A stretch of 40,581 bases of DNA from Armatimonadota bacterium (GTDB lineage Bacteria; Armatimonadota; Zipacnadia; Zipacnadales; FEN-943): NCBI GenBank assembly GCA_003170595.1, contig PMZA01000413.1:1-40581 (forward strand), written 5' to 3'. The position numbers were made by a program, and so were the translations under genes. Shown here in pieces: positions 8,655 through 40,581 of this stretch (position 1 is its first letter; each line of letters starts with the position of its first letter). The notes under the pieces are model-generated. The model was not told the origin of the DNA. It made no database searches and saw only the letters and a list, made by a program, of their open reading frames with translations.

Positions 8655-8674
8655 GCCAGATCAGATTGAGGAGG

Positions 8675-13425: not shown

Positions 13426-13670
13426 CTCCCGGCGGAACAGCACTGTTGGGTGCAGATTCCACGCCAGCGGGAAGGCACCTGCGCCTCGGACGGCGAAGCT
13501 TGGCACGGGATGACTCACCTCTCGGCCAGATCCATGGGCTCATCCGGCCAGTAGTCGCGACGGTGGACGGCACGCAGGACGAGGCGTGGCTTGACACCCT
13601 CGCGCGGCCCCTTGGGGAGCATCAGGCGCTCAAGGCGAGGGTGGCGGGGTTAGTAGCCAAGTAGGGACTG

Positions 13671-14489
13671 CTACTTCCCTCCGGCTCCGGCGTCGGTCGC
13701 TGGAGTGCCCTGACCGTCGCCGACGGCGACCATCGCCTTGAGCAGACCATCGGCGATCACGGACATGCCATGGTCGCCCGGGTGGCCGGTGATAACGCCG
13801 GTGTAGAAGGGCTCGGCGCTGGCGAAGTTCTTGGGGTCCTGAGGGAAGGCGCTCAGGTCCACGAAGACGCGGTGGGACGGGTCCTCGGCGCAGATTTCGC
13901 GCTTGATGGGATCGATGGGGCCGCCGTCTCCGAGGAGCATGCTTGTCACGAAGATGTGCGGGTTGCTGGCGTCGCGGAGGCCGTTCATGAGCGCCCTCAG
14001 AGCGGTCCTGAAGGCGTCGGGCTTGAAGGCTGCCCTGTCCATGTTCTCGCCGAACTGGAGCACGACGATGTCCGGCTTGTAGTCGATCTGCCACTGCAGC
14101 CGCGCATTGGTGTAGGTGGGATACTGGCGCTCGAGGATGTCGGCGATGTTGACGACATTAGCGCCGTCGATGGAGGGGGCCTTGGCGGGGTCGGTGGGGC
14201 TGAGATGGAGGTGCCCACCAGTTCGGTCGTCAAGACCGGCCACAAGGAGATGGACGTAGTCCTTCTCCGGGGCGCTGGCTGCCATGCCGCAGTAGATCTT
14301 CCAGCCGCCCTCCGGCCAGATGCCGTGCAAGGTGATGCTGTTGCCGAGGATGAGGATGCGGTCGGCTTTCAGGGCGCTTAGGGTTGCAGAGGGATGCCCG
14401 TCATCGCCATGGCAAACGCACACCAGCAGACAGCCACACGCCAGGGCAGCAGAGATACGGATCAGTTCGAAGAAGCTCGCATGGATCAT
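13671..14489 (-). CDS. SGNH/GDSL-type hydrolase, probable carbohydrate esterase, secreted (272 aa)
   Basis: AGGAG lies 10 nt upstream of the ATG at 14489. The N-terminus is hydrophobic (ISAALACGCLLVCVC). Block I-like motif ILILGNSITLHG, block III-like LQFGENMD, and C-terminal GHPGDHGM. Confidence 0.7.
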   Translation of the reverse strand: MIHASFFELIRISAALACGCLLVCVCHGDDGHPSATLSALKADRILILGNSITLHGIWPEGGWKIYCGMAASAPEKDYVHLLVAGLDDRTGGHLHLSPTDPAKAPSIDGANVVNIADILERQYPTYTNARLQWQIDYKPDIVVLQFGENMDRAAFKPDAFRTALRALMNGLRDASNPHIFVTSMLLGDGGPIDPIKREICAEDPSHRVFVDLSAFPQDPKNFASAEPFYTGVITGHPGDHGMSVIADGLLKAMVAVGDGQGTPATDAGAGGK

Positions 14490-14589
14490 GGGTGATGGAC
14501 TCCTTGTATGGGTCTGGCGAGTGACCTGCCGCGACGAATGGTACCATGAATCCTGTCGGGCCCATGCTAGGACCGGGGTAACCCTAACG
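14490..14589. promoter_or_regulatory. Divergent intergenic region between the 14489(-) and 14590(+) starts
   Basis: 100-bp gap between divergent start codons. No boxes assigned. Confidence 0.35.
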
Positions 14590-16359
14590 ATGACCAGGTC
14601 GGTTCAAGTTCTTCTTGCAGGCGCACTCCTCCTGATCGCGGTCGGGCTTGCCGCTGCTGACACCGACCCCGACCACCTCTTTCCGCGTGACCAGGGCATT
14701 AGGCTTCCGGACGGGACGATGGCCGGGGCGTGGGTGACGGCGGAGAAGTACTCCCGCACGTACTACGTCGACCAGCGCAACCCCAGGGCCTCGGACGCGA
14801 GCGATGGGTCGGCGCAGCATCCCTTCCTGACGATCAATCGTGCGGCGAGGGAGGCGCAGGCCGGGGAGCGCGTGCTCGTCAGGGCGGGCATCTATCGCGA
14901 GGAAGTGCAGCCGGTGCAGGGCGGCGATGGGCCGGACCGTATGATCACCTACGAGGCCGAGGCGGGCCAGGCTGTCGTGATAAGGGGATCGTGCGTGCTG
15001 CCCAGGGCCTGGCAAAGGTCAGCGGCCTCGATATGGACGCTGCGGCTGCCGCAATCAGACTTCGCGGAGTACAACCCCTTTGCCTACGACAACATCGATG
15101 AGCGCGAGATCAACCCGGGCGACTGGAACGCTCTGCGGGACGGCCCAAAACTCCCGAGCTACACGCTCAAGCGGGGGCTGCTGTTCCAGGATGGCCGGCG
15201 ACTGAAGCAGGTCGCGCGGGCCGAGGATCTGGCCGCTGAAGAGGGGACGTACTGGGTGGATGAGGGCGGCTGGGTGCTCCGGGCGCACCTCTTCGGCGGG
15301 GCTGATCCCAACGCGTCGCTCATGGAAGCAACCAACCGCAGGCAGTGCTTCGCCCCGAAGCAGCCGGTGTCGTATGTGCGGCTGAAAGGCTTCGTCATCG
15401 AGCAGGTCGGCGACGCCTTTTCGTATCCGGTCGAGGCCGCCGTGTCGCCGATGGGTGGACACAACTGGATCATCGAGGATTGCGTCGTGCGGCATGTCAA
15501 CGCCGACGCGATCAACATCGGCAGCCGGGTCTGGACGTGGGGAGGCAACCGGACGTCCGGTGAAGGTTGGGATTGCATCGTGCGAGGCAACACCATCTCG
15601 GACTGCCGCGTCAGCGGCATCAAGGGCCTCACCCCCTTCAACTGCGTCATCGAGGACAACTGCCTCGACCACATCGGCTGGCAGGACGTCGAACTCGGCT
15701 ATGACAACGGGGGCATGAAGCTGCTGGTGTGCAGGAACCTCCTCGTCCGGCACAACCTGATCCGGGACATGATCGCGGCGCCGGGGGTCTGGCTGGACTG
15801 GGATAACGTCAACTGCCGCGTGACCCAGAACGTCTGCCTGGACATCCAGAACACGGGCGGGGCGATTTTCATCGAGGCGTCGCAGCAGACGAACTGGGTC
15901 GACCACAACGTGATCTGGAACGTCCGCGGCAACGGGGTCTACCAGCATGACACCGACGAACTGGTCGTCTTCAACAACCTGATCGGGCGGTGCACCGACG
16001 CGGCGGTGCGGATGCAGGTCTGCACGACAAGGAAGCTCAACGGGCGGCTCGTCACCTCCAAGCGGAACCAGCTGCGGGGCAATGTGATGGTGGACAACGG
16101 GGCGATCGTTTTCTTTGGCGATCCGGAGAATGGCTCTGACTACAACGTGGTTGGGAATGGGAGAGATGCGCAGGCGCTGGCGACGTGGCAGAAGGCGTCA
16201 GGCAAAGATGCCCACAGCCAACAGATACCTAGCCGGGCCGCAGTCGAGGGTTTGACCTTAAGGCTTGAGTGGACGCTACCGAAGGATTTCCTGCCCGGCC
16301 CGTTCAACCGGGACGCGGCATCCAAGAGGACGATGCGATTGTTCGCGCCGCGCAGCTGA
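14590..16359 (+). CDS. Right-handed parallel beta-helix repeat protein (DUF1565/pectate-lyase-fold), secreted (589 aa)
   Basis: Signal peptide: MTRSVQVLLAGALLLIAVGLAAA. HPFLTINRAAREAQAGERVLVRAGIYRE is typical of the beta-helix N-terminal cap. Repeated short N/G/I-rich rungs are present (NTISDCRVSGIKG, NCVIEDNCLDHIG, NLLVRHNLIRD, VFNNLIGRC). The upstream part of ORF 14320.. overlaps the divergent gene and its promoter region. Confidence 0.75.
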   Translation: MTRSVQVLLAGALLLIAVGLAAADTDPDHLFPRDQGIRLPDGTMAGAWVTAEKYSRTYYVDQRNPRASDASDGSAQHPFLTINRAAREAQAGERVLVRAGIYREEVQPVQGGDGPDRMITYEAEAGQAVVIRGSCVLPRAWQRSAASIWTLRLPQSDFAEYNPFAYDNIDEREINPGDWNALRDGPKLPSYTLKRGLLFQDGRRLKQVARAEDLAAEEGTYWVDEGGWVLRAHLFGGADPNASLMEATNRRQCFAPKQPVSYVRLKGFVIEQVGDAFSYPVEAAVSPMGGHNWIIEDCVVRHVNADAINIGSRVWTWGGNRTSGEGWDCIVRGNTISDCRVSGIKGLTPFNCVIEDNCLDHIGWQDVELGYDNGGMKLLVCRNLLVRHNLIRDMIAAPGVWLDWDNVNCRVTQNVCLDIQNTGGAIFIEASQQTNWVDHNVIWNVRGNGVYQHDTDELVVFNNLIGRCTDAAVRMQVCTTRKLNGRLVTSKRNQLRGNVMVDNGAIVFFGDPENGSDYNVVGNGRDAQALATWQKASGKDAHSQQIPSRAAVEGLTLRLEWTLPKDFLPGPFNRDAASKRTMRLFAPRS

Positions 16360-20205: not shown

Positions 20206-20329
20206 CTCTGGGGGCCGACTTCGCCGTGGGTGGGGCAGGCACCTTTCTCTCGGCCCTGCGCTTGAGGAGGGGTGGCGTCTGAGGTAACGTCTAGGGGCGG
20301 TATGGATCACCCGCTTGGAGAGCCCATCA
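20206..20329. promoter_or_regulatory. Divergent intergenic region between the 20205(-) and 20330(+) starts
   Basis: 124-bp gap. GGAG at 20317-20320 serves the ATG at 20330. Confidence 0.35.
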
Positions 20330-23300
20330 ATGAGAGCAAGGAACCGGGTCGTTGCGATCATGCTGCTGGCCGGCGGGGTGACGACCAGCGCGGTCGTGCA
20401 AGCGGCACCGCTGTCGATTCAGACCTCCGCCCTGCACGCTACCTTCGACCTCGGCGCCCTCACCAGCCTGGGTGACCTGCGGGGGCACAACTACGTTGGC
20501 GGGAAGATTGCGCCGGAGGGCGTCGCCATCCATCGCGTCGGCGAGGATCACGTCGCCCAGACCGCCAGCGGATCGACGTCGCTGGATGGGCAAGGCAAGG
20601 CCCAGTGTCGCTACGAGGGCTTCAAGGGCCTCCCCGGCGCGTCGGTGGACGGCGACTTCGAGCGCGACGACGCCTCGGGCGATGTGGCCCTGACGATGCG
20701 GTGCCAGTCGCCTGAGAAAGGCGTGGCGGGGGTCGAGTGGGCCGTCGGGCCCATCCCGTCGGACATGAACATCGTCGTGCCGGGTTGGGGTGGGTTCAAG
20801 ATGACGGCGCAGTCGCCGTCCACGGCGGCGGACCTGGAATACCCGATGGCCTGGGAGGCGCAGCTTGTCATCGTCGAGGGGAAGGGCCGCGGGTTCTATG
20901 TCTGGTCCGACGACGCGACGGGCAGGTACAAACGCCTCAGGATCAGGCTGAAGCCGGACGGCTGGTGGATCGGCTTCACCACGTGGAACAACGCGCCCTT
21001 CGACGACCTGGTCGAGTGCGAGACGGCGAAGTGGCGGGTCAATGTCTACGAGGGCGACTGGCGCGTGCCAGCGCGCAGATATCGCGAGTGGGCCGCGAAG
21101 AGCATGCCCCGGGTGATCGACCAGCAGCCGGCCTGGGTGAAGGACATCCGTTGCGCGGTGATCATGTTCGTCGGCCCGAGCGTCAAGGCGCTGGACATGC
21201 TGGCCCAACGCGTGGACCCGAAGCAGACGCTGCTCTACGTCCCCGACTGGCGGCCCGACGGGTATGACCGCCTGTACCCGAACTACGACGGCGTGGCGGA
21301 GTTCGGGCCCTTCGTCCAGCACGCCCACGACCTGGGCTTCCGGGTCATGCCGCACCTGAACTACTTCGCGATCGACCCGCAGCACCCGCTCTACGAGCAG
21401 TTCAAGGCCTATCACCTGCGCGACGCCTGGGGGACCCATGAGAAGCAGTGGTTCATCTGGGACGACCCCAGCAACCCCGCCAACAATCGCAAGCTCGCGT
21501 ACATCGACCCGGCCTGCAAGGCGTGGAGGGACCTGCTCCTTGGGCGCATAAAGAAGGTCTACGAGACCTACCACGTCGACGCCGTCTACCTCGACCAGAC
21601 GCTGAACATCTTCAACGACTACAACGGCCTCATCGACGGCGCGACGATGCTGCAGGGCAACCTCGCGCTCGGGCGTGAACTCCGGGCGGCGCTGCCGGGG
21701 CTGGCTGTTGGAGGCGAGTCGCTCAACGAGGTGACGGCGCGGTACCAGGATTTCTGCCAGCGGCATGCCTACGGGATCGACTTCGACCATAGCACATGGA
21801 ACAAACCGATGCTGAAGTTCGCGCACCCGATCAGCACGTACCTGCTGCAGCCGACGATCAAGTTCAACTACCTGGGCTGTCCGCCGCCGGATCGGGCGCA
21901 GTACTACGCGGCATGGAGGGAGGACTACACGCGGTGGGGCCTTATCCCGACGCTCATGGTGTTCGACGCCGAGGCGAAGCCGCAAACCGGCTTCCTGCGC
22001 CAGCTCTTCGATGAAATCAAGTTCTGGCAGACCGAGCGCGTGAGCCCTGACCTCGACGGACCATGGCCGGCGGACGTGCTGTTCCCCTACAAGACGGCGC
22101 GGGGCCAGCGGGCTGTGAGGACGGTCGACGGACGGCTCCTCTGCGGTGATCGGGAGATCAGCCGCACGGTCACGGAAGTCACTGAGGTGCGGACGCCGGG
22201 CACGATCGAGGGGGCGTTCTGCTATGACCGCGAGCGCATCTTCGGGCTCAGCCCCGACCGGTGGTACCCGTGCTTCGCCGAGCGAAGGGACATGGCGGCG
22301 TTCCACGTGGAGGCGCTCCCGGCGGGCGTCACGCTGAGCGCGTGTCGGCTGCAGGATGGGCTGGCGACGCTGATCGCAAAGGAGCCGGTCGTGGCGGACC
22401 TGCCGGCGATGATCGCCGAAGCGACGACGGGGGCGCTGCCCTTCGGCGGCCCGCCGACCGAGGTGCATGGGGCGCTGAACGGCGAGGATGGATCGCAGTT
22501 CGCGACCATGGGCGACGAGATCCACGCCCACCCGCCGTGGAAGCATGGGACGGGGATCGCCTACGCTCGATGGACCATCACCCTTCCCAGGCAGGGCCGG
22601 CTGCGCTTCATCAGCCAGGTCGCGATGGACACCGCGGTCGTGGGGCAGTCGGATGGCGTGCTGTTCGGGGTGACCGCGCGGGTGGGGGCGCAGATGGCGC
22701 ATGCCGAGGTGTTCAATGCGACGGCGGAGAAGCGGCCGCTGGAGCTTGACCTCACGCCCTTCGCCGGCAAGGAGGTCACGCTGGAGTTGACGGTCGACCC
22801 CGGGCCGCAGAGGAACGTGACCGGCGACTGGGCGCGGTGGTATGGCGCACGGGTGGTCGAGGCTGAGGTGACGAAGGGGCAGGTGGCGATCGTGGACCCG
22901 GCGCGGCGGGCGATCGCGCTGTCGGGGACGACGGCGTCGACTCCGGCGTACGTCGGCGATCGGGGTCAGGCGGAGGTGACCTTCCCCGGGACCGTGCTCA
23001 TCCTTCGGGATACCCCCCTCGGCGTTACCCTTCCCCTGGACCTTGCGGCGACCGCGTTCAAGGTGGGCTTCACCGACTACAATGGGCAGGCGCTCATCGC
23101 TCCGGCGTGGGCTTCCGCGACGACAGGCGCGGGCGTGGTGGGCGGCGTGCAGCGCCAAGGGCTGAAGGTGCAGCCACCGGATCTGGGCCAGACGTCCGCA
23201 TGGTACGCGCTGACCCTGCCGACTCGGCCGGCGACGATGCACTGCTTCGTGGGCATCGAGGATGGATCGACGTCGACGGGCGTGGAGTTCATCATCGAGG

Positions 23301-23488
23301 CCAATGGGATCGAGCTTGCGCGGCAGAAGATGATGCCCGGGATGCCGTGGCGCGAGATCAGCGCGGACCTCTCGCCGTGGGCCGGGAAGGTCGCCGTCCT
23401 GTCGCTGATCACCGACTCAGCCGGGGCCTTCGGCAGCGATTGGGCGCGGTGGGGCGAGCCGGTTGTGGTGGCCCGACCGACCAACTGA
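20330..23488 (+). CDS. Large secreted hypothetical protein with a glycoside-hydrolase-like TIM-barrel core (1052 aa)
   Basis: Signal peptide: MRARNRVVAIMLLAGGVTTSAVVQAAP. The central segment PDWRPDGYDRLYPNY...HDLGFRVMPHLNYF...YHVDAVYLDQTLNIF...LAVGGESLNEV looks like a (beta/alpha)8 catalytic core. The C-terminal part appears to be beta-sandwich. The family is unknown to me. Confidence 0.6.
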   Translation: MRARNRVVAIMLLAGGVTTSAVVQAAPLSIQTSALHATFDLGALTSLGDLRGHNYVGGKIAPEGVAIHRVGEDHVAQTASGSTSLDGQGKAQCRYEGFKGLPGASVDGDFERDDASGDVALTMRCQSPEKGVAGVEWAVGPIPSDMNIVVPGWGGFKMTAQSPSTAADLEYPMAWEAQLVIVEGKGRGFYVWSDDATGRYKRLRIRLKPDGWWIGFTTWNNAPFDDLVECETAKWRVNVYEGDWRVPARRYREWAAKSMPRVIDQQPAWVKDIRCAVIMFVGPSVKALDMLAQRVDPKQTLLYVPDWRPDGYDRLYPNYDGVAEFGPFVQHAHDLGFRVMPHLNYFAIDPQHPLYEQFKAYHLRDAWGTHEKQWFIWDDPSNPANNRKLAYIDPACKAWRDLLLGRIKKVYETYHVDAVYLDQTLNIFNDYNGLIDGATMLQGNLALGRELRAALPGLAVGGESLNEVTARYQDFCQRHAYGIDFDHSTWNKPMLKFAHPISTYLLQPTIKFNYLGCPPPDRAQYYAAWREDYTRWGLIPTLMVFDAEAKPQTGFLRQLFDEIKFWQTERVSPDLDGPWPADVLFPYKTARGQRAVRTVDGRLLCGDREISRTVTEVTEVRTPGTIEGAFCYDRERIFGLSPDRWYPCFAERRDMAAFHVEALPAGVTLSACRLQDGLATLIAKEPVVADLPAMIAEATTGALPFGGPPTEVHGALNGEDGSQFATMGDEIHAHPPWKHGTGIAYARWTITLPRQGRLRFISQVAMDTAVVGQSDGVLFGVTARVGAQMAHAEVFNATAEKRPLELDLTPFAGKEVTLELTVDPGPQRNVTGDWARWYGARVVEAEVTKGQVAIVDPARRAIALSGTTASTPAYVGDRGQAEVTFPGTVLILRDTPLGVTLPLDLAATAFKVGFTDYNGQALIAPAWASATTGAGVVGGVQRQGLKVQPPDLGQTSAWYALTLPTRPATMHCFVGIEDGSTSTGVEFIIEANGIELARQKMMPGMPWREISADLSPWAGKVAVLSLITDSAGAFGSDWARWGEPVVVARPTN

Positions 23489-31758: not shown

Positions 31759-33606
31759 ATGCACACCTGCGAGCCGGCCTTGGTCATCCTGGCGCTTGTC
31801 GCCACCGCGTGTGTCTGCCACAGCGCCACAACACCCGCCGCGTGGTCGAACACCCTCAAACCGTCAGGCACGGCCGCCGGTCCGTTGACCCTCGCGAAGG
31901 ACGGCGCGACTAGCTACGTCATCGTGATCCCGGCGAAGCCGACTTCGCAGGACAACAAGGCGGCCGAAGACCTCGCGCTCTGGCTCGGGAAGATGACCGA
32001 CGCAACCTTCGCCATCGTGCCTGACTCAACATCGCCGCGGGATACCGAGATCAGCATCGGGCGGACCAATCGCCTGACCGACGCCAGGGTCCCCCAGGCC
32101 GGAGCCGACCTCGGCAACGAGGGCTACGCGATCGGAGTGGAGGGCCAACGCCTCTTCCTCCTCGGAGGGAAGAAGCGCGGGGCGATCAATGCCGTTTACG
32201 CGCTCCTCGAGGAAGACTTCGGCTGCCGGTGGTACTCGCAGAGCTACACCAAGATCCCCCATCGCAGCGTCCTCCGGTTCGGGCCGGTGCCGCGGAGCTA
32301 CGTGCCGAGGCTGATGATCCGCGACCCGTTCTACCACGACGCCTTCGACGCCACCTGGTCGCTACACAACCGCACCAACGCGCCCAACGCCGCCGTGCCC
32401 GAGGAGTGGGGCGGACACGTGGACTACGATGGACTGTTCGTGCACACCTCCAACACGCTTGTGCCGCCCGACCAGTACTTCGCTAAGCACCCGGAGTACT
32501 ACATGATGAGCGGGGGCAAGCGCAGCCCTCAACAGCTATGCCTGACCAACCCCGACGTCGTCCGCATCGCCACCGAAAACCTCCTGCGCATCCTCAAGGA
32601 CAACCCGAACACGGAGATCGTGTCGGTCTCGCCCAACGATGGCGGCGGGCACTGCACCTGCCCGAACTGCAGGGCCATCGACGACGCCAACGGCAGCCCT
32701 TCCGGGACGCTGATCACCTTCCTGAACCAGATCGCGGAGGCGGTCGAGAAGGTGAGGCCGGAGGTCATGATCTCCACACTCGCCTACCTCGATACGATCG
32801 ACCCGCCGAAGATCGTTAGGCCGCGGCACAACGTCGCGATCCAACTGTGCAACGACCTGCACTCGTGGCGCTATCCCTTCACCTGCTTCGCCACCGACAC
32901 GAAGCCCGAGAGCAAGCGCTACCGGAACGCCATCATCGGGTGGGCGAAGATCACGAAGAACATCGACATCTGGGACTACTTCGTCAACTTCAGCCACTAC
33001 CTCGCGCCCATGCCGAACATGGACATCCTGCAGCCGACGGTGGACTTCTACGTCGCGCACAACTGCGCCGGCGTCATGATGCAGGCGGCCTACCAGGGCT
33101 TCGGGGGCGAGTTCGCGCCCCTAAGGTCGTGGGTGATGGCGAAGCTGCTCTGGGATCCGTCGCGACGAGTCGACACGCTGGTGGACGACTTCATCGGAGG
33201 CTACTACGGCACGGCGGCTGATGACGTGAGGGCCTACTGGAAGCTGCTCTATGCGACGAAGGCCAAGCATATGAACACGATGGCGGCGCCGCCGGAGGGC
33301 ATCCGCTACTCGATGACCTCGCCGTTCCTGTCGAAGGAATTCCTCGACCAGGCGACGGCGATCTTCGCGCACGCGGTGAGGCAGTGCGACTCGGAGGAGC
33401 TTCGGGATCGCGTGGAGCTTGCGGGGCTGCCGATCATGTACGTGAAGCTCATGCAGGGGCCGAGCGTGTGGGGCGATGGGTACAAGGCCATGATCGATGA
33501 CTTCGAGAGGATCGCGCGGCGGGAGCACATCGACTTCCTGCGCGAGGGCGGGCCCGATCTCGACGAAAAGCTGCAGGCGTGGCGGGCGAGCGTGCAGGCG
33601 AAGTAA
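31759..33606 (+). CDS. DUF4838-type (GH20-like) secreted protein (615 aa)
   Basis: RBS GGAGGA lies 6 nt upstream. The N-terminus is hydrophobic. LTLAKDGATSYVIVIPAKPTSQDNKAAEDLALWLGKMTDATF and GGGHCTCPNCRAID (a C-x-C-x-x-C motif) match my recollection of DUF4838 proteins. Confidence 0.7.
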   Translation: MHTCEPALVILALVATACVCHSATTPAAWSNTLKPSGTAAGPLTLAKDGATSYVIVIPAKPTSQDNKAAEDLALWLGKMTDATFAIVPDSTSPRDTEISIGRTNRLTDARVPQAGADLGNEGYAIGVEGQRLFLLGGKKRGAINAVYALLEEDFGCRWYSQSYTKIPHRSVLRFGPVPRSYVPRLMIRDPFYHDAFDATWSLHNRTNAPNAAVPEEWGGHVDYDGLFVHTSNTLVPPDQYFAKHPEYYMMSGGKRSPQQLCLTNPDVVRIATENLLRILKDNPNTEIVSVSPNDGGGHCTCPNCRAIDDANGSPSGTLITFLNQIAEAVEKVRPEVMISTLAYLDTIDPPKIVRPRHNVAIQLCNDLHSWRYPFTCFATDTKPESKRYRNAIIGWAKITKNIDIWDYFVNFSHYLAPMPNMDILQPTVDFYVAHNCAGVMMQAAYQGFGGEFAPLRSWVMAKLLWDPSRRVDTLVDDFIGGYYGTAADDVRAYWKLLYATKAKHMNTMAAPPEGIRYSMTSPFLSKEFLDQATAIFAHAVRQCDSEELRDRVELAGLPIMYVKLMQGPSVWGDGYKAMIDDFERIARREHIDFLREGGPDLDEKLQAWRASVQAK

Positions 33607-33612
33607 GGCTTC

Positions 33613-34833
33613 TCAGCGGGGCGAGGCAATCGGGCGCGGGTAGAGGATTGTCGCGGCGAAGGTCGCTTCGTCGCCGGCGTCCTGCACGCCGATGCCGAAC
33701 CAGAAGCGGCCGTCCCAGTCGGGCGGCGCCCACTTGCGCAGGTCGAGGCCGATGAGGTTCCCCAGGGGCAGGTCGTCATGAACCTGCTCCCAGTTCACCT
33801 CCAGCGTGCGGCTCGGGCGGGCGAGGTCCATCTGCCACGCCGGGGCGCGACGCTCGCAGCGGCGGTCGGGATGCTCGGGGCGCATGGGCGGGTGGTGGAG
33901 GAAGACGCGGCGAGCGTAGCCGCGCGGTGTGTGATAGTCGAGCACGATCCCCACGAAGCGATTGTTCTCCATCTCACCGTAGGCCGCCCACGGATGGTAG
34001 GTGTCGAACTCGGCGCGTAGCCAGAGGGTGTCGGCGCCGCAGGCCTCGAAGCCGGCGAAGGCGTAGCCGAGCCCCTGGCCGGTGCGGTTCATGCGCGTCT
34101 CGAGGCGGAGGGTGGCGGGGTCGAAGCGGGCCATCCCGCCCGGTGCGCCGCGATAGACCTCCTGGTCCCACGTGAAGATCGTGAAGTCGGAAGGGTAACT
34201 AGCGACGGGCAGAGTGGGAGGCGGCGGCGGCGGTTCGGGCGGGGCGTCGGGGAGGATGACGTCGAACTCAAAGCCCGCCCAACTGTGGAAGCCGTAGCAG
34301 AAGGGATGGCCGAAGAGGGCGGGCTCAGCCCAGGGGCCGGCCTGACCGTACTCGAAGTATCCGCCGGTGAAATCGTACTGGTCGGTCTTCAGCGGCCCCG
34401 ACTTCTCGGCGTCGAAGATGTAGCGGCGGCAGTCCTGGCCGAGGCGGAAGCGCTCGGTGAGATCGGCGACCAGGGCCGGGGCGGTCGAGCCATCGAGCGG
34501 GCCGGTGACCACGCGCGGCCGTCCCCAGAACAGGAAGCAGGCGTTGGAGAAGGCATAGGAGGCGATGGTCTGCAGGCGGATCTTAAGGGCCTGGCCGGCG
34601 AAGCGGCGGAGGTTGACGGCCTGGGGGAGCCACACGCCGGACTCGGCCCCCCAGACCGCGCGGTAGACGATCTCGCGGGTGGCGCCGTGCTTGATCGCGA
34701 TGACGAAGTTGCCGCCCTGGTTGTCGGGGGCGTAGATCGACTTGGCGATGTCGAAGACCAGCCATGGGCCGGAGTCATGCGCGGGCGGGGCTGCGGTCAG
34801 CAAGGCCAGGCAGAGCGGTAAGGCGGCCGTCAT
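33613..34833 (-). CDS. Secreted hypothetical two-domain protein with a poly-Pro linker (406 aa)
   Basis: The ATG at 34833 overlaps the upstream stop codon (ATGA at 34830-34833). Signal peptide: MTAALPLCLALLTAAPPA. The linker PPEPPPPPPT is encoded by the (GGC)n run at 34220-34233. No family recognised. Confidence 0.6.
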   Translation of the reverse strand: MTAALPLCLALLTAAPPAHDSGPWLVFDIAKSIYAPDNQGGNFVIAIKHGATREIVYRAVWGAESGVWLPQAVNLRRFAGQALKIRLQTIASYAFSNACFLFWGRPRVVTGPLDGSTAPALVADLTERFRLGQDCRRYIFDAEKSGPLKTDQYDFTGGYFEYGQAGPWAEPALFGHPFCYGFHSWAGFEFDVILPDAPPEPPPPPPTLPVASYPSDFTIFTWDQEVYRGAPGGMARFDPATLRLETRMNRTGQGLGYAFAGFEACGADTLWLRAEFDTYHPWAAYGEMENNRFVGIVLDYHTPRGYARRVFLHHPPMRPEHPDRRCERRAPAWQMDLARPSRTLEVNWEQVHDDLPLGNLIGLDLRKWAPPDWDGRFWFGIGVQDAGDEATFAATILYPRPIASPR

Positions 34834-36188
34834 TTCCCGCCGCCCTCCGGCTGCGAGAGGCTGACCGTGGTGAGAAGCATGGGGCGCGTCGGGAGGGTGA
34901 GGTCAAGGATGCGCGGGCAGGGCCTCGCCGCGAAAAGCTGCGAGCGCGTCACGGCCTCGGTGTTGCGCCAGACGCGGACCTGGCGCTTCGGGTCGGCGGG
35001 ATCGGGCTTGAGTTCGCTCGCCGTGTCGTTCATGAGCGCAAGCTCGGCGGTGATGGGGCGGCCGGCGACGAGGCCGAGCTTCGCCGTGTCGATGTGGATC
35101 GTGACCGTGCGCGGGGCGGGGTCGTGATCGAGGACGCTGACAACGGCCTGCGTTCCGTGGCGGAAGCCGAGGGCCTCGAAGTTGACGTCGGTGCGCCACC
35201 AGCGCGGCTCGACGGCGTCCTCGACGAGGCGGAGGTCGCGATAGTTGAGGGCTTCGCGCATCCACGGCAGGCGGCCCACCTCCGAGAGGCTTCCGCACCA
35301 GCCGTACAGGAGATCGTAGGCGGCCATGGACGGGTCGGCGGCGACGTTGCCGTAAGTCGGGACAACGACGAAGCCCGGCTCCTGGGAGAGCTTCGTGCGG
35401 AGCATGTCCACGGCGAGCTTCCGCCAGCCCGGGCCGGCGAGGGCCTGCCACTGCTCGTCGCGCCACTCGATGTAGCCGAGGTCGGTGTAGGGGAGGTTCG
35501 CGCCGTTGACGAAGATCGCGGCGTCGGGCTTGATCGACTGGAGACGCTCGCGGAGGGCGCGCATGTAGTCGAGCCAGTCGTAGCCCTGCGCGACCTGCCG
35601 CGTCGACCAGTCGGGGACCTCGCTCGAAAAGCCCGGGCCGTCCATGTAGTAGAAGTCGAAGCCCCAGGTCTTGAACTTGCCCGCGTGCATGTCGAGGAGG
35701 TACTCGCGGCAGGCTGGGTTGTCGATCTGAAAATAGAACGTCGGGCGGCCGCCGGAGTCGCTGGCAATGCCCGAGGTGATGAGGTTGCCCTCGAGGTCGC
35801 GGATGCCGAAGTCGGGATGCAGGCGATAGATGTCGGAGCGGTCGTCGAAGAGCGCGTTCGTGTACGCCGAGACGCGGGCGTTGGGGAACTCGTGGCGCCA
35901 GCCTGGGGCGATGCCGACGACGTCGGGATGGAGGTGCTTGGGCGGATCGCTGTCGGCCGCCCAGTTGCCCCAGGGCGGGTTGAGGAACCAGATGGTCGTC
36001 GTGACGAGGTCGGGCATGGCGGCGCGGTAGAAGGGATAGGTCTCGGGCGGGCCGAGGTACATGGCATCGCCGACGACGCGGTAGGGCCACTCGGGCTTGC
36101 GGAAATCCCAGAGCTTGCGGTAGTCCGGGAGCGACTGGTAATGGCGGTCGAGGGCGGTGAAGTCGCCGTCGAGGATGACCCAGCGCAT
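34830..36188 (-). CDS. Hypothetical protein with a glycoside-hydrolase-like TIM-barrel signature and no signal peptide. This is the conservative model from the first canonical ATG (452 aa); coding signal continues upstream to about 36431.
   Basis: KTWGFDFYYMDGPGF resembles the GH27/GH36-type (G-x-D-x-x-K-x-D) strand. This is the only protein-like part of the 1567-aa ORF 34830..39533. ATG 36188 is the first ATG/GTG/TTG in frame, yet the next 81 upstream codons have 89% GC3 and a protein-like translation with no canonical start. Confidence 0.6.
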   Translation of the reverse strand: MRWVILDGDFTALDRHYQSLPDYRKLWDFRKPEWPYRVVGDAMYLGPPETYPFYRAAMPDLVTTTIWFLNPPWGNWAADSDPPKHLHPDVVGIAPGWRHEFPNARVSAYTNALFDDRSDIYRLHPDFGIRDLEGNLITSGIASDSGGRPTFYFQIDNPACREYLLDMHAGKFKTWGFDFYYMDGPGFSSEVPDWSTRQVAQGYDWLDYMRALRERLQSIKPDAAIFVNGANLPYTDLGYIEWRDEQWQALAGPGWRKLAVDMLRTKLSQEPGFVVVPTYGNVAADPSMAAYDLLYGWCGSLSEVGRLPWMREALNYRDLRLVEDAVEPRWWRTDVNFEALGFRHGTQAVVSVLDHDPAPRTVTIHIDTAKLGLVAGRPITAELALMNDTASELKPDPADPKRQVRVWRNTEAVTRSQLFAARPCPRILDLTLPTRPMLLTTVSLSQPEGGGK

Positions 36189-36431
36189 CTCGGCGGAGAC
36201 CGGGCGGGAGGCTTTGAGATAGTCGACAAAGACGGTGTTGAGCCAACCCGCGGGCAGGGCTTTCGAGGCCCCGCGCAGGACGAAGCGGTCGTTGACCGAC
36301 CTGCGATAAGAGGCGAGGGTCAGGGAGAAGTCGGTGGCCGTCGCGAGCGGAGCGTCGCCGGTCGAGACCTGCTCCGCGATGACCTTCTCGGTCTTGGCGA
36401 CGACCTTGCCGGCGGCAACCTCGGCCGCCGG

Positions 36432-38870
36432 ATGCCGATAGTCAGCATGACCTCCGGCGGTCTGTGCTTCTCCAGGGACGGCCGCTTCCTCGTGGGCGCC
36501 GCCATGGATGAGATCGTAGTCTGCAGCATAGCGACCGGCGAGGTCGTGCGGAGGATGGAGTTCTCGCCCTACGGGACGACCGATATCGGCTTCGTGGCTG
36601 GGACCTACCTCGGCATGATGTCGGTCGAGATGGTCGGCGAGGCGCCGGAGAAGCAGCGCGGAACCGTGTATTTCGACCTCCAGACCGGGAAGCTGGGGCC
36701 GCGCAGCCAGGGCCTGCACCGGGCCGCCTTCGGCTCTCCCTTCGTCCTCAGCCCCCACTGGAAGATGCTGGCGGTCTTCTTGCCCGATGGGGCCCTGCAT
36801 TTGATGGACATGCTGACTTGGAAGGATGTCCCGGTGGCGGCGTCGCTGGCCCAGATGAAGGTCCAGGTTGTGGCGGTGTCTGACGACGGCGCCCGTCTGG
36901 CTGGGTTTGCGGGCGTGGACGGCAGGAATCTGTTCGGTTCCCTTCTCACAGCGAACGCGCCCCTCAAGGTCTGGGACGTTGCCACCGGCAAGGAGCTGTT
37001 CTCCCTGACTGGCATCGACTTCCTGGCGATGAGCGGCGACGGCAAGTTCGTCGCGGGCGTTGACGCTCGTGGGGCATGGAAGGACGCTGTGCCGGTCGTA
37101 GTGTGGGACGCGACAACCGGCAAAGAGAAGACGCGGTTCCGGGCGGCCATACCAGGGATGTACCAGGGCACGCTCCACTTCGACTTTGGGGGCTTCGGTC
37201 ACTTCACCCGGTGGGTGACCGCCGGGGCACTCAGCGATGACGGCGCGATCCTTGCGACGGCCTACGGCGGCGAGGTCGTCGTGGGGACGGTGGCGGACGG
37301 CAAGCAGACCGCCCGGTGGAAGGCGTCCGCCGGCACGTGTCAGTTGGCCATGAGCGCCGACGGCAAGCAGGTCGCCTCCCTGGACGTCGACGGACGAGTC
37401 GCCCTCTGGCGCGAGGGCAAGCCAGGCCCGATGGCGATCATGGCGGCCGTAGGCGTCGAGGACTACATCACCCTGCTCCCGGATTCCGGCTTCTACTGGG
37501 CCTCCAAGGGCGCCCTCGGGAAAGTGGCCTTCGCCCTCGGAACGCGGGCCCTGCCCTTCGATCAGTTCGACCTGACTCTGGATCGGCCGGACAAGGTCCT
37601 CGAGGCCTTCGGCTGCATTGATGAGCGGTACGTGGCGGCGGTCCGCCGGGCCTGCGATAAGCGCCGTCGGCAGGCGGGGTTGTCGGAGGACGAGCGCGCC
37701 GGTGCTGGGTCGAAGCTGCCCGAGGTCGAGGTCGACGCCACGGCCGTCCCGGTCTCCACGCCTGAGAGGCGGGTCAAGCTCGGCGTGAAGGCGCGCGCCG
37801 AGGACTGCCTGCTCGCGAAGCTCAACGTGTGGATGAATGGCGTCCCGATCTACGGCCGGGCGGGCATCGACCTGAGGGAACGCAAGACCCATGAGCACGC
37901 CCAGGACCTGGAGGTCGACCTCTCGGCGGGCCGCAACGAGATTCAGATATCGGCGCTCAACGAGCACGGCGTCGAGAGCCTCCGCGAGACCGTGGTCGTC
38001 AACTGCGAGGCGCAGGCGCAACCAGACCTCTACGTGCTGGCCATCGGTGTGGCCCACTATCGCGACCAGAAGCACAACCTGACCTATTCGGACAAGGACG
38101 CCAGGGACGTGGCGGCGTTCTTCAGGGACAACGCTGGCACCTTCGCCCACGTCTATGTCAAGACGATCCTCGACGAGGAGGCGACGCGCGAGAAGATCGC
38201 GGCGGCCAAGGAGTTCCTGGCCAAGGCGGGCGTGGACGACGAGGTCGTCGTGTTCTTCGCCGGCCACGGCCTGCTGGATAAGCAGTTGGACTACTACTTC
38301 GGCACCTGGGACATGGACTTCGCCGACCCGGCCAGGGGAGGGCTCTCTTATGAGGACATGGACGCCCTGCTTGACGGCCTTCGGGCGCGGCGGAAGCTCA
38401 TGCTCATCGATACCTGCCACGCGGGTGAGGTGGACAAAGACGACGCGGCGGCCCCGCTCGTGCCGCTGACAGGGCCGGGCGCCCAGAGGCGTGGTGACGA
38501 GGCCGCCCTGGGGCCGGGCGTGGTCGCCCGCGCAACGCTGGCGGGTGTGGTGCCGGTCGGCCTGAGCCACTCGCTGGAGCTGGTGAGCGATCTGTTCGTG
38601 GACGTGCGGCGAGGCACGGGCGCCCACGTCATATCGGCCGCCGGAGGCGCGGAATACGCTCTGGAGTCCGGCGAGTGGGGAAACGGGGTCTTTACCTCTT
38701 CGGTGTTGAGCGGACTCAAAGCAAAGGCCGCCGATGCCGATCACGACGGCGTGGTGACCGTGTCGGAGCTGCGCTCCTTCGTGGCCAAGATGGTCGAGAC
38801 GCTCACCCACGGGCGGCAACGGCCGACCTCGCGGCAGGAGAACCTCGAAGCGGACTTCGCCGTGTACTAG
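36432..38870 (+). CDS. WD40-like 7-blade beta-propeller + Ig-like domain + caspase-family (peptidase C14) protease, with no signal peptide (812 aa)
   Basis: GC3 switches to 88% exactly at ATG 36432; an alternative ATG lies at 36447. About seven blades are visible (e.g. LCFSRDGRFLVGAAMDEIVVCSIATGE, LKVWDVATGKE, VVVWDATTGKE, LAMSADGKQVASLDVDGRVALW). The caspase p20-like core is LYVLAIGVAHY...VVVFFAGHG (His612, codon 38265-38267) and LMLIDTCHAG (Cys662, codon 38415-38417). The p10-like tail is NGVFTSSVLSGLKAKAADADHDGVVTVSELRSFV. Confidence 0.85.
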   Translation: MPIVSMTSGGLCFSRDGRFLVGAAMDEIVVCSIATGEVVRRMEFSPYGTTDIGFVAGTYLGMMSVEMVGEAPEKQRGTVYFDLQTGKLGPRSQGLHRAAFGSPFVLSPHWKMLAVFLPDGALHLMDMLTWKDVPVAASLAQMKVQVVAVSDDGARLAGFAGVDGRNLFGSLLTANAPLKVWDVATGKELFSLTGIDFLAMSGDGKFVAGVDARGAWKDAVPVVVWDATTGKEKTRFRAAIPGMYQGTLHFDFGGFGHFTRWVTAGALSDDGAILATAYGGEVVVGTVADGKQTARWKASAGTCQLAMSADGKQVASLDVDGRVALWREGKPGPMAIMAAVGVEDYITLLPDSGFYWASKGALGKVAFALGTRALPFDQFDLTLDRPDKVLEAFGCIDERYVAAVRRACDKRRRQAGLSEDERAGAGSKLPEVEVDATAVPVSTPERRVKLGVKARAEDCLLAKLNVWMNGVPIYGRAGIDLRERKTHEHAQDLEVDLSAGRNEIQISALNEHGVESLRETVVVNCEAQAQPDLYVLAIGVAHYRDQKHNLTYSDKDARDVAAFFRDNAGTFAHVYVKTILDEEATREKIAAAKEFLAKAGVDDEVVVFFAGHGLLDKQLDYYFGTWDMDFADPARGGLSYEDMDALLDGLRARRKLMLIDTCHAGEVDKDDAAAPLVPLTGPGAQRRGDEAALGPGVVARATLAGVVPVGLSHSLELVSDLFVDVRRGTGAHVISAAGGAEYALESGEWGNGVFTSSVLSGLKAKAADADHDGVVTVSELRSFVAKMVETLTHGRQRPTSRQENLEADFAVY

Positions 38871-38889
38871 ACGCGGGAGGTTGGTGGCG

Positions 38890-40566
38890 ATGAAGCATGA
38901 CCACTGTCGGACCATGAGAACAACGCTCGCCGCGGCCGGGTCATGTCTGATAGCCACGCTGGTGCTCCTTGCAGCAGCCCTCGCGGCCGACACGTCGCCG
39001 CGCCAGGCAGCACGGCTCGTGGTGCAGACCGGCCACACTGATGTTGTTGCAACCGTCGCCTTCTCCCCCGACGGCAAGCTGATTCTCACCGGCAGCAACG
39101 ACGGCTCAGCCCGCCTCTGGGAAGTTCGCACGGGGCAGGAGATCCGCCGCCTCACGGGCCGCGGATGCCAGCGCGTGACTGCCGTAGCGTTCTCGCTAGA
39201 CGGCCAGTTGGCTGCCACCGCGGAACTCACCGAGCAGACCGATCCCATCGTAGACTTCTGGGATCCCGCCACGGGCGCCTCGAAGGGCCGGCTCGCCGTC
39301 GCTGGCGGACGAATGCTCTTTGCCCTGGCTTTCTCGCCGGACGGGCACACGGTGCTGGTGGGCGGAGTCGACAATACTGCTCGGCTCTGCGACATCGCCA
39401 CTGGCCGCGAGCTTCTCAAGTTGGCGGGCTTCACCATGGCGGTCACGAGTGCTTCGTTCTCGCCGGACGGGAAGTTGGCGCTGACCGCCGCCGAACTCGG
39501 CGAGGCCCTAGTCTGGGATGCGCGAACCGGCAAGCGGGTTAGCTTTGCCGATTACCGTCCGTCGTCGGAGTTGGGGCTTGGCGTAGCCTCTGCCGACGCC
39601 CGCTACACGGAGACCAGCGTTGACGACAACACGGTCAGGCTCTGGGACAACGCCACCGGCAGACCCGCGGCTCGTTTCTCGCCCCACCAGGAAGGCCTTC
39701 CTGCGGGACTGGCCGTCACTCCCGACGCCCGCACTCTGGCCGAACTCCACCCCACGGGCATCTCCCTCTATGACATCACCAGCGCTAGACTGCTTCGGGA
39801 GATCAAGTTCCCCACGGGTGCCTTCAAGTATAGGGATCATGCCATCTACTCCCCCGATGGGCGGTACCTGTTCATCTACGGCGGCAGTTCCGAGCCCCTG
39901 AACTCGCCACAACTATGGGATACGGAGACGGGTGCGAAGCTGCAGGACCTGGCCGGGCGCGTCACCCCTGTGGGCAGTCTGGCCTGGTGTGGCGGTGATG
40001 CGGACCTGCTGGCAACTGACTGGCGCGGCACGACCGTACGATGGGACGTGTCCTCCGCGCGCGCACTGCGCCGTTTCCAGACCTTCGGGTGGCGGTCTCC
40101 GACGGCGATGACACCCGACGGACGCCTCGTGCTGGTAGCCGCCGTGCTCTGTGACGCCCAGACCGGCCGCGAAGTCCGGCGCTTCCAGGACTCGGCGACG
40201 AAGACCATCAACGACCTCGCGCTGTCCCAGGACGGCCGCTGCGCCGCAGTCGTCTGGCCTCCCCCGGATTGGAAGCCGACGAACGGTCTGCCCGACACCG
40301 GCGACGCTTTGGTCATCTTCTGGGACACGGAGACCGGTCGAGAGCTGTGTCACTTCCGAGACGAAGACGGCCTGGGTCGCCTCAACTGTCCGCGCGCCTT
40401 CTCGTCTCAATGCCTTTTCGCTCAATCCGTCGGGCTCAATGGGCTCAGGGTTGTCGTCTGGGACCCCCGCCGCGCGCGTCAGGTGGCGCAGCTCGACGGG
40501 CACACGCAAACGGTCACGTACATCGCCTTCTGCCTCGACGGCACCAGCCTCCTGACCCAGGCCTAG
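38890..40566 (+). CDS. Signal-peptide/N-terminal-anchor WD40 repeat protein, about 12-14 blades (558 aa)
   Basis: GGGAGG (38874-38879) lies 10 nt upstream of the ATG at 38890, only 19 nt after the caspase gene stop. The hydrophobic N-terminus is LAAAGSCLIATLVLLAAALAAD. There are canonical repeats (GHTDVVATVAFSPDGKLILTGSNDGSARLWEV) and many degenerate ones (VRLWDN, ALVWDA, VIFWDT, VVVWDP). Stop codon TAG at 40564-40566. Confidence 0.85.
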   Translation: MKHDHCRTMRTTLAAAGSCLIATLVLLAAALAADTSPRQAARLVVQTGHTDVVATVAFSPDGKLILTGSNDGSARLWEVRTGQEIRRLTGRGCQRVTAVAFSLDGQLAATAELTEQTDPIVDFWDPATGASKGRLAVAGGRMLFALAFSPDGHTVLVGGVDNTARLCDIATGRELLKLAGFTMAVTSASFSPDGKLALTAAELGEALVWDARTGKRVSFADYRPSSELGLGVASADARYTETSVDDNTVRLWDNATGRPAARFSPHQEGLPAGLAVTPDARTLAELHPTGISLYDITSARLLREIKFPTGAFKYRDHAIYSPDGRYLFIYGGSSEPLNSPQLWDTETGAKLQDLAGRVTPVGSLAWCGGDADLLATDWRGTTVRWDVSSARALRRFQTFGWRSPTAMTPDGRLVLVAAVLCDAQTGREVRRFQDSATKTINDLALSQDGRCAAVVWPPPDWKPTNGLPDTGDALVIFWDTETGRELCHFRDEDGLGRLNCPRAFSSQCLFAQSVGLNGLRVVVWDPRRARQVAQLDGHTQTVTYIAFCLDGTSLLTQA

Positions 40567-40581
40567 CCCGGATTATGCATG

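What the first reader, a model, noticed from the sequence alone, without database searches (positions are those of the whole stretch)
36432..40566. Two-gene module: a cytosolic WD40-propeller/caspase protease and a co-transcribed, exported multi-blade WD40 protein
The glycan-degradation theme ends abruptly at 36431. The next gene encodes a complete 7-blade WD40-like propeller, an Ig-like spacer and a peptidase C14 (caspase-fold) domain. Its catalytic His (FFAGHG, codon 38265-38267) and Cys (DTCHAG, codon 38415-38417) are both intact, so it should be an active protease.

Nineteen nt downstream, behind its own GGGAGG, lies a 558-aa WD40 protein that does carry a hydrophobic signal or anchor. Bacterial caspase homologues fused to WD40 or other repeat sensors are a recognised class in comparative genomics, but they are essentially uncharacterised experimentally. 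They have been predicted to act in programmed cell death or biological-conflict responses, and caspase-like proteases are known activators in some bacterial immune operons.

Two features here deserve follow-up. The first is the pairing of a repeat-sensor protease with a second, differently localised repeat protein. The second is its placement at an abnormal junction (see the separate finding at 36189-36449). The window ends 15 nt after the second gene, so further partners may lie beyond it.
Basis: partly seen in the sequence, partly recalled or inferred. Interest (0 to 1): 0.7.

Follow-up and report, generated by a model that had tools for sequence, protein, structure and literature searches.

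The report
Truncated exported WD40-caspase gene at misjoin
The "812-residue cytosolic protease" is the back half of a much longer exported WD40-caspase gene, cut where this contig joins two unrelated loci, and its pairing with the neighbouring WD40 gene is not conserved, so the finding is largely ordinary.

Summary
The sequence features are real. There is a caspase-fold (Peptidase_C14) domain with an invariant His612/Cys662 dyad, an Ig-like domain, a beta-propeller, and 19 nt downstream a 558-aa WD40 protein with a signal-like N-terminus.

The gene model and the interpretation are not supported. At window 36400-36416 a 17-nt stretch is shared by two different loci. To the left, the window is identical to at least 4 other contigs, in which a 1124-aa gene runs through uninterrupted. 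To the right, it is identical to contig L001, in which the caspase gene is 1589 aa. With an upstream signal-peptide ORF separated by one in-frame TAG, that gene would be about 1788 aa. Both genes are therefore 5'-truncated in the window, most likely by a misassembly and less likely by a real rearrangement.

The true protein belongs to a very large, uncharacterised family with 9,698 cluster representatives. Its members have the layout signal peptide, WD40 propellers, linker, Ig-like domain, C-terminal caspase. A crude hydrophobicity test found a signal-like N-terminus in 65 of 71 full-length members, so the family is probably exported, not cytosolic.

A WD40 gene lies downstream in only 3 of 80 related loci, and gene 2 has no orthologues. 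No defence-system signature was met.

Verdict: a new member of a known kind, of low interest.

The parts
36400..36416 (.). Junction. A 17-nt stretch (ACGACCTTGCCGGCGGC) is shared by the two parent loci. Left of it the window follows the glycan locus; right of it, the caspase locus.
   Evidence: BLASTN: L001 is 100% identical to the window from 36400 to 40581. L002-L005 are 99.97-100% identical up to 36416.
34830..36416 (-). 3' part (last 528 codons) of a conserved 1124-aa hypothetical gene of the glycan cluster. Its first 596 codons are missing in the window.
   Evidence: The intact gene is L002 6630-10004. It is present on 4 contigs. Full-length homologues are 42-70% identical over 96-99% of its length.
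36400..38870 (+). 3' part of the exported multi-propeller WD40-Ig-caspase gene.
   Evidence: The L001 ORF 5212-9981 (1589 aa) reads through ...DLAGGNLGRRMPIVSMTSGG....
36432..37466 (+). Last beta-propeller region (aa 1-345 of the fragment), weakly WD40-like.
   Evidence: Pfam WD40 and Beta-prop hits are below their cut-offs. The AF2 model is all-beta with blade-like strands. Foldseek top hits are WD40 propellers.
37465..37706 (+). Conserved linker (YY-ASK...FDQFDL-NRPD motif plus helices), aa ~345-425.
   Evidence: Invariant R385, P386 and D387. Helices 377-414 in the model. No PDB or Pfam match.
37713..38012 (+). Ig/Fn3-like beta-sandwich, aa ~428-527.
   Evidence: AF2 strands with pLDDT around 90. 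Foldseek 3pdd Fn3-like module, E=3.9e-5. PDB profile hit to CBM 2w3j, E=0.025.
38034..38858 (+). Peptidase C14 (caspase/metacaspase-fold) domain, aa 535-809. His612 is at 38265-38267 and Cys662 at 38415-38417.
   Evidence: Pfam E=1.6e-13. Invariant H612, G613, D660, C662, G665 and E666. PDB profile hits to 6w8s and 3bij. Foldseek 3bij, E=2.4e-9.
38733..38768 (+). EF-hand-type loop DADHDGVVTVSE (aa 768-779) inside the caspase domain; a possible Ca2+ site.
   Evidence: Pfam EF-hand_5, E=0.0017, below its cut-off. The motif is present in 48 of 80 family loci.
38875..38880 (+). Shine-Dalgarno-like GGGAGG, 9 nt before the gene 2 ATG.
   Evidence: Read directly from the sequence.
38890..40566 (+). 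Gene 2: a 558-aa WD40-repeat protein with an N-terminal signal-peptide-like segment (aa ~13-34, ...LIATLVLLAAALA/AD).
   Evidence: Pfam WD40, E=1.6e-31. Hydrophobic 10-mer score of 2.93. The identical protein sits in the same position in L001.

Best explanation
Window 36400-40581 is the 3' end of a locus, probably from a planctomycete-like high-GC bacterium. The locus encodes (i) a giant exported caspase-like protease and (ii) an exported WD40-only protein 19 nt downstream.

The protease has this layout: signal peptide, several WD40 propellers, a conserved linker, an Ig-like domain and a C-terminal C14 domain. It is 1589 aa as an ORF in contig L001, or about 1788 aa if read through one TAG.

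In this contig the locus is joined, across 17 shared nucleotides, to an unrelated glycan-utilisation locus of the same or a very similar genome. The join cuts both flanking genes in the middle. The '812-aa cytosolic protease' is therefore an artefact of the join. The join is most likely a metagenome misassembly at the contig end. A real microhomology-mediated rearrangement is less likely.

Shown:
- the two-sided truncation;
- the caspase fold with an intact dyad;
- a signal-like N-terminus in most of the family (by a crude hydrophobicity test only);
- no conserved partner gene.

Inferred: the native protein acts outside the cytoplasm, in the periplasm or at the envelope (some relatives have lipoprotein-like N-termini). 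It would be an endopeptidase whose propellers recruit or gate protein substrates and whose activity may be Ca2+-dependent. It would probably cleave after Arg/Lys, as other non-metazoan C14 enzymes do. Gene 2 is probably co-transcribed but is a lineage-specific WD40 paralogue, not an obligate partner.
For: Junction:
- L001 is 100% identical to the window from 36400 onward and unrelated upstream of that point.
- L002-L005, from four different samples, are identical up to 36416 and then continue as an intact 1124-aa gene. That gene is on 4 contigs and has full-length homologues.
- The 807-aa product called from the window is recorded on one contig only, of length 40581, which is the window itself.
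- The shared stretch is 17 nt, or 20 nt if one mismatch is allowed.
- Tetranucleotide correlation between the two sides is 0.957-0.966, the same as within the window (0.962-0.973).

Native gene:
- 1589-aa ORF.
- An upstream same-frame ORF carries a signal peptide and WD40 blades, separated by a single TAG.

Family:
- 82 homologues at E<=1e-5; the closest (those fetched) are 605-1363 aa.
- At least 556 genome loci.
- 9,698 cluster representatives at E<=1e-30. The top 150 all carry the module at the extreme C-terminus of 539-1716-aa proteins.
- 65 of 71 full-length members have a hydrophobic N-terminus, against 5 of 71 for an internal control segment.

Protease.

No conserved partner.
Against: - Seventeen nucleotides is shorter than the usual de Bruijn k (21 or more), so a simple graph misjoin needs a sequencing error or a variant. 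A genuine rearrangement cannot be excluded without the reads.
- I could not identify the window's sample or assembler.
- Only one read-through contig on the caspase side could be inspected (L001). A second was reported as similar but not shown.
- In L001 the signal-peptide ORF is separated from the 1589-aa ORF by a TAG. If that stop is real, the protein made in that population may itself lack a signal peptide.
- Export was judged by a hydrophobicity heuristic, not by SignalP.
- Substrate, specificity and Ca2+ dependence are inference only.
Confidence: 0.8

Rival explanations
1. The junction is a genuine genomic rearrangement (illegitimate recombination at a 17-nt microhomology) in a sub-population. 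It leaves a 5'-truncated caspase gene that might still be translated from Met 36432 as a leaderless, cytoplasmic 812-aa protease.
For: - The overlap (17 nt) is shorter than typical assembler k-mers.
- Both sides have the same tetranucleotide signature, so both loci probably lie in one genome.
- The locus already shows decay or variation in the population: two in-frame TAGs in L001 and a 62-nt deletion in L003.
Against: - The junction is seen on this contig only.
- At least 4 contigs on one side and L001 (plus one contig not shown) on the other read through intact genes.
- The junction lies 4.2 kb from a contig end, a typical place for misjoins.
- No promoter-like site or RBS precedes 36432.
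- The rearrangement would also destroy a conserved 1124-aa gene.
Confidence: 0.17
2. One reading: a native two-gene conflict or programmed-cell-death module. A cytosolic WD40-sensor caspase would act together with a differently localised, exported WD40 partner.
For: - The dyad is intact, and repeat-fused bacterial caspases are a recognised class. WD40 is the commonest accessory domain of prokaryotic metacaspases (PMC3501461).
- Caspase-like proteases do act in defence (bioRxiv 10.1101/2024.10.24.620036; PMC12642450).
- The protease matches the PADLOC generic 'caspase' model at E=5e-13.
- The L001 locus holds a second C14 gene and a TPR gene.
Against: - The gene is truncated.
- The native protein and its family appear to be exported.
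- The pair is not syntenic in relatives, 3 of 80, and gene 2 has no orthologues.
- There is no EACC1 gene, STAND NTPase, gasdermin, TIR or hydrolase partner in the locus.
- The NCBIfam EACC1-type caspase score is 78.8 bits against a cut-off of 140.
Confidence: 0.03

Closest known systems
Prokaryotic metacaspase-like / orthocaspase C14 proteins with WD40 repeats (Asplund-Samuelsson et al. 2012, PMC3501461); NCBI annotation 'caspase family protein'
   Same: Both have a C14 p20-like domain with the His-Cys dyad (AGHG ... DxCHSGE). In both it is fused to WD40 repeats, the most frequent accessory domain (10.9% of 671 sequences in that survey). N-terminal hydrophobic helices taken as signal peptides were also noted there.
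   Different: Here the caspase is at the extreme C-terminus, after a family-specific linker and Ig-like domain. The widely distributed WD40-containing architecture named in the passages I read is Metacaspase-NACHT-WD40, with the protease at the N-terminus. No member of this particular family has been studied experimentally, as far as my literature searches showed.
GSU0716 of Geobacter sulfurreducens (PDB 3BIJ), a structural-genomics bacterial caspase-fold protein
   Same: It is the best structural match (Foldseek E=2.4e-9) and also a sequence-profile match (E=5e-4). The Cys-His-Ser-Gly motif aligns.
   Different: GSU0716 is a single-domain protein of about 285 aa with no propellers or Ig-like domain. 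Its function is also unknown.
Arabidopsis metacaspase-4 / metacaspase-9 (PDB 6W8S, 8A53), Ca2+-dependent type II metacaspases
   Same: Same fold, and the dyad aligns. The family often carries an EF-hand-type acidic loop (48 of 80 loci), which hints at Ca2+ control.
   Different: These are eukaryotic and cytosolic, with a long autoinhibitory linker between p20 and p10 and no WD40 or Ig domains. Sequence similarity is marginal (E=2e-4).
EACC1-caspase two-gene conflict system (Kaur et al. 2020, PMC7159879; PMC12642450)
   Same: Both have a caspase-superfamily protease fused to variable repeat domains and both act near a membrane. The weak NCBIfam hit NF047832 covers the p20 region.
   Different: That system needs a 5' EACC1 gene and has the caspase at the N-terminus. 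Here there is no EACC1 gene, the caspase is C-terminal, and the score is below the family cut-off.
Propeller-gated or adaptor-assisted extracytoplasmic and large proteases (tricorn, prolyl oligopeptidase/DPP-IV; Prc-NlpI). Analogy from general knowledge only.
   Same: A protease domain is combined with beta-propellers or repeat adaptors that select or funnel substrates. Prc-NlpI also works outside the cytoplasm.
   Different: The catalytic classes and folds are unrelated. The analogy was not tested here.

Membership tests
Peptidase family C14 (caspase/metacaspase/orthocaspase, clan CD) | Sequence match to the family model above the curated threshold | tested here: met
   Pfam PF00656: 51.3 bits against a cut-off of 21.4, E=1.6e-13, profile positions 4-232 of 233.
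Peptidase family C14 (caspase/metacaspase/orthocaspase, clan CD) | Catalytic His-Cys dyad at the canonical positions | tested here: met
   H612 and C662 are invariant in 28 sequences. They align with the YSGHG and DSC139HSG motifs of AtMC4, and the C139A entry has Ala at that column. The motifs are present in 79 of 80 genome loci.
Peptidase family C14 (caspase/metacaspase/orthocaspase, clan CD) | Caspase/hemoglobinase fold | tested here: met
   AF2 model with pTM 0.83. Foldseek hits to 3bij, MALT1, metacaspase 9 and 4 and caspases 3, 8 and 9, with probability 1.00.
Peptidase family C14 (caspase/metacaspase/orthocaspase, clan CD) | Peptidase activity and P1 specificity | not testable with these tools
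   Needs enzyme assays.
Exported WD40-linker-Ig-caspase family (the uncharacterised family delimited here) | Complete 458-position C-terminal module (linker, Ig-like domain, C14) at the extreme C-terminus | tested here: met
   The window protein is the first row of alignment A2. Relatives match positions 1-458.
Exported WD40-linker-Ig-caspase family (the uncharacterised family delimited here) | N-terminal signal peptide followed by one or more WD40 propellers (typical total length 1000-1700 aa) | tested here: not met
   The window ORF lacks this because it is cut at 36400. The native copy in L001 has it, but behind one in-frame TAG.
EACC1-caspase conflict system | Caspase domain scoring above the NCBIfam NF047832 cut-off | tested here: not met
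   78.8 bits against a cut-off of 140.
EACC1-caspase conflict system | A 5' neighbouring gene encoding the single-TM EACC1 domain, with the caspase at the N-terminus of the second protein | tested here: not met
   The upstream genes in L001 are a TPR protein and another C14 protein, and the caspase is C-terminal. No EACC1 model was among the matches returned by the NCBIfam and PADLOC scans.
Known anti-phage defence systems (PADLOC-DB v2) | Match to system-specific models for both genes | tested here: not met
   The protease matches only the generic 'caspase' PDLC02987 (E=5e-13) and a HEAT-ARM repeat model. Gene 2 has no match.
Conserved two-gene operon (protease plus WD40 partner) | The gene pair is kept as neighbours in relatives | tested here: not met
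   A downstream same-strand ORF similar to gene 2 occurs in 3 of 80 loci, and an upstream one in 5 of 80. Four inspected loci have unrelated neighbours. Gene 2 has no orthologue above 37% identity.

The most novel reading that the evidence does not exclude
The native, full-length protein represents a very large but experimentally untouched family of extracytoplasmic caspase-fold proteases: signal peptide, WD40 propellers, Ig-like domain and C14, often with an EF-hand-type loop. These could form a Ca2+-gated envelope proteolysis or cell-death system, widespread in Bacteroidota and present in several other phyla including Planctomycetota. In this lineage both caspase genes of the locus carry in-frame amber codons. 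That could mean controlled read-through, or ongoing counter-selection of a dangerous enzyme.
Probability: 0.1. Interest if true: 0.55.

Novelty: new member of a known kind. Interest (0 to 1): 0.22.

Why it matters
The main value is as a caution. The apparent "abrupt change of theme", the "cytosolic" protease and the "abnormal junction" all have one trivial cause: two loci joined at 17 shared bases, with both flanking genes truncated. Gene models or functional ideas built on this contig end would be wrong.

A secondary point concerns the family behind the fragment. It is very large (9,698 cluster representatives, at least 556 loci in species-representative genomes, including cultured Leeuwenhoekiella, Reichenbachiella and Labilibacter strains). 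Most members have signal-like N-termini. My literature searches found no study of any member. That makes it a reasonable target for anyone interested in what caspase-fold proteases do outside the bacterial cytoplasm. Nothing in this window singles out this copy.

Tried and rejected
- Single-sequence phmmer of the caspase domain against the PDB found nothing relevant. A 10-sequence profile was needed.
- Foldseek with the whole 812-aa model returned only WD40 propellers. A separate model of the C-terminal module was needed.
- The scan of JGI metagenome contigs for close relatives gave one 40%-identical caspase-only locus, L008, and no second copy of this organism's locus.
- Exact look-ups of the window's 812-aa and 807-aa products found no record. 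The window's sample and assembler stayed unknown, and no reads could be examined.
- I looked for a conserved neighbour among unannotated flanking ORFs of four relatives by all-against-all BLASTP. The only hit was between two extra C14 paralogues.
- The promoter and terminator scan of 36000-40581 found nothing above chance.
- I considered TAG reassignment as the reason for the in-frame ambers in L001 and rejected it. TAG ends gene 1 at the family's conserved C-terminus (...DFAVY*) and also ends gene 2.
- I considered a lipoprotein signal for gene 2 and rejected it. 'AGSC' is a poor lipobox, and the hydrophobic core continues after the Cys.

Full report
**1. What is in the sequence**

On the + strand an ORF can be read from ATG 36432 to TAG 38868-38870 (812 aa). 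After 19 nt, with a GGGAGG at 38875-38880, a second ORF runs from 38890 to 40566 (558 aa).

Pfam gives Peptidase_C14 for residues 535-809 of the first ORF, at E=1.6e-13 and 51.3 bits against a cut-off of 21.4. WD40 signals further upstream are sub-threshold. The second ORF gives strong WD40 matches, E=1.6e-31.

Both are invariant in an alignment with 27 homologues, as are G613, D660, G665 and E666.

A profile of the C-terminal 468 residues finds Arabidopsis metacaspase-4 (6w8s, E=2e-4) and Geobacter GSU0716 (3bij, E=5e-4). The family Cys falls on metacaspase-4 Cys139, and the C139A mutant entry 6w8r shows Ala at that column.

An AlphaFold2 model of this module (pLDDT 78.8, pTM 0.83) matches GSU0716 (E=2.4e-9), MALT1, metacaspases 9 and 4, and caspases. 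Its beta-sandwich matches Fn3/Ig-like modules.

**2. The gene model is wrong because the contig is a join of two loci**

The 558-aa protein is also encoded on another public contig, L001 (ENA ERZ27254118 k141_429973). L001 is 100% identical to the window from 36400 to the window's end and unrelated upstream of that point. In L001 the caspase reading frame runs a further 2.3 kb upstream, giving a 1589-aa ORF. It reads straight through the supposed start (...DLAGGNLGRR-MPIVSMTSGG...) and contains much stronger WD40 repeats.

The left side tells the same story. The window is 99.97-100% identical up to position 36416 to contigs from four other samples (L002-L005). In those contigs the minus-strand gene continues as a 1124-aa protein. 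That protein is found intact on four contigs. It has full-length homologues of 42-70% identity over 96-99% of its length.

The two parent sequences share exactly 17 nt, at 36400-36416 (20 nt if one mismatch is allowed). At this point the window loses two things:
- the first 596 codons of the 1124-aa gene;
- at least 766 codons of the caspase gene.

The 807-aa product called from the window is recorded on a single contig of 40,581 nt, which is the window itself. The junction therefore lies 4.2 kb from a contig end.

The two sides have the same G+C content. Their tetranucleotide correlation (0.957-0.966) is as high as between parts of the glycan side (0.962-0.973), and higher than to unrelated high-GC genomes. 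Both loci probably come from one genome or population.

I consider a misassembly the likelier cause and a genuine microhomology-mediated rearrangement the less likely one. Without reads this cannot be settled. Either way, the 812-aa ORF is not a native gene. This also explains the separate "abnormal junction" finding at 36189-36449.

**3. The native protein appears to be exported**

In L001, the frame of the 1589-aa ORF continues upstream across one TAG (5122-5124). That TAG sits inside a WD40 blade (DWVG*VAFSPKG). Beyond it lies a 169-codon ORF that begins with a typical signal peptide (RALLPALTLVVVTALAAAQS) followed by WD40 blades. The ancestral protein was thus about 1788 aa.

The homologues recovered by protein search reach 1363 aa, and most of those I read carry signal-peptide-like N-termini followed by a conserved "...V-Q-x-GH" motif. 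In the 80 best genome loci, 65 of 71 full-length genes have a strongly hydrophobic N-terminal segment. The same test on an internal control segment scores 5 of 71. Several have lipobox-like N-termini. This test is a crude hydrophobicity heuristic, not SignalP.

**4. The family**

The 468-aa C-terminal module consists of a conserved linker with the YY-ASK...FDQFDL-NRPD motif, an Ig-like domain and the C14 domain.
- It occurs in at least 556 loci of species-representative genomes. The best 80 are mostly Bacteroidota, together with Gemmata (51% identity), Isosphaeraceae, Myxococcales, Pyrinomonadaceae, Nitrospirota, Ignavibacteria and Gammaproteobacteria.
- They include the cultured Labilibacter marinus, Leeuwenhoekiella and Reichenbachiella strains.
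- A search of 1.84 billion cluster representatives gives 9,698 proteins at E<=1e-30.
- The top 150 all carry the complete module at the extreme C-terminus of proteins 539-1716 aa long.

Public records name these proteins only "caspase family protein" or "WD40 repeat protein". WD40 is already known as the commonest accessory domain of prokaryotic metacaspases (PMC3501461). My literature searches found no experimental work on this particular architecture.

An EF-hand-type loop (DADHDGVVTVSE, aa 768-779) is present in 48 of 80 loci.

**5. The "module" is not conserved**

In four inspected loci of relatives the flanking genes are unrelated to each other and to gene 2. Across the 80 genome loci, a same-strand downstream ORF similar to gene 2 occurs in 3, and an upstream one in 5.

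Gene 2 itself has no orthologue. Its best non-self hits are generic WD40 proteins of at most 37% identity. It is only about 25% identical to the propellers of its neighbour.

In L001 the locus also holds a second exported C14 gene, a TPR protein and no recognised defence component. The second C14 gene is interrupted by an in-frame TAG between its His and Cys motifs. PADLOC returns only its generic "caspase" model (plus a HEAT-ARM repeat model over the WD40 region) for the protease and nothing for gene 2. The NCBIfam EACC1-type caspase score (78.8 bits) is below its cut-off of 140. The defining layout of the EACC1 system is an upstream EACC1 gene with an N-terminal caspase (PMC7159879). That layout is absent here.

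**6. Most likely function**

Shown: a caspase-fold domain with an intact dyad, at the C-terminus of a multi-propeller protein whose family mostly has signal-like N-termini.

Inferred: an extracytoplasmic endopeptidase whose propellers bind or gate protein substrates. It may be Ca2+-controlled. By analogy with other non-metazoan C14 enzymes it would cleave after basic residues.

A role in conflict or cell death by envelope proteolysis is not excluded. It has no specific support here.

**7. Verdict**

The object is a truncated copy of a member of a known kind of protein, a WD40-fused bacterial caspase homologue. The junction is best explained as a misjoin. Interest is low. The only modestly interesting residue is the size and complete lack of characterisation of this probably exported family, and the amber-interrupted state of both caspase genes in the native locus.

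Noticed in passing
L001 787-789 and L001 5122-5124 (native caspase locus, outside the window): Both caspase genes of the native locus carry a single in-frame TAG inside a conserved domain. One lies between the His and Cys motifs of a stand-alone exported C14 gene. The other lies inside a WD40 blade, between the signal-peptide ORF and the 1589-aa ORF. TAG is also the ordinary stop of gene 1 and gene 2, so reassignment is unlikely. Pseudogenisation, strain variation or read-through remain open.
   Followed up: partly
window 34830-36416 (-): This is the C-terminal 528 codons of a conserved 1124-aa protein with no Pfam domain, embedded in the glycan-utilisation cluster. Full-length homologues of 42-70% identity exist in other metagenomes. 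Its function is unknown.
   Followed up: partly
window 34830-39533 (-) and 34764-38870 (+): Very long stop-free ORFs (1567 and 1368 aa) run across the junction on both strands. They are by-products of 67% G+C and could mislead gene callers.
   Followed up: yes
window 32762-32823: JGI contig L003 lacks these 62 nt. That splits the 615-aa DUF4838 gene into two ORFs in that sample, so there is population-level indel variation in the glycan cluster.
   Followed up: no
window 38733-38768: A canonical EF-hand-type loop (DADHDGVVTVSE) lies inside the caspase domain and is present in 48 of 80 related loci. This hints at Ca2+ binding, as in metacaspases.
   Followed up: partly
window 1687-23488: The glycan theme is confirmed: GH2 (1687-3660), GH38 alpha-mannosidase (4869-8654), a GH106-like rhamnosidase (10171-13518, minus strand), a beta-helix protein (14320-16359) and DUF6259 (20315-23488). 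There are also a transglutaminase-like protein (8666-10162) and a protein with a URO-D-like C-terminal domain (3381-4853).
   Followed up: partly
L001 2481-4634 and L001 394-2484: The native locus also encodes a 717-aa protein with a hydrophobic N-terminus and C-terminal TPRs. In addition it has a second exported C14 protease with a ~500-aa C-terminal extension that has no Pfam match and is weakly similar to a C14 paralogue next to P0003 (L010).
   Followed up: partly
L001 11678-11810 / window 40567-40581: All available contigs end within 133 nt downstream of gene 2, in a lower-GC stretch that looks non-coding. What follows the locus is unknown.
   Followed up: no
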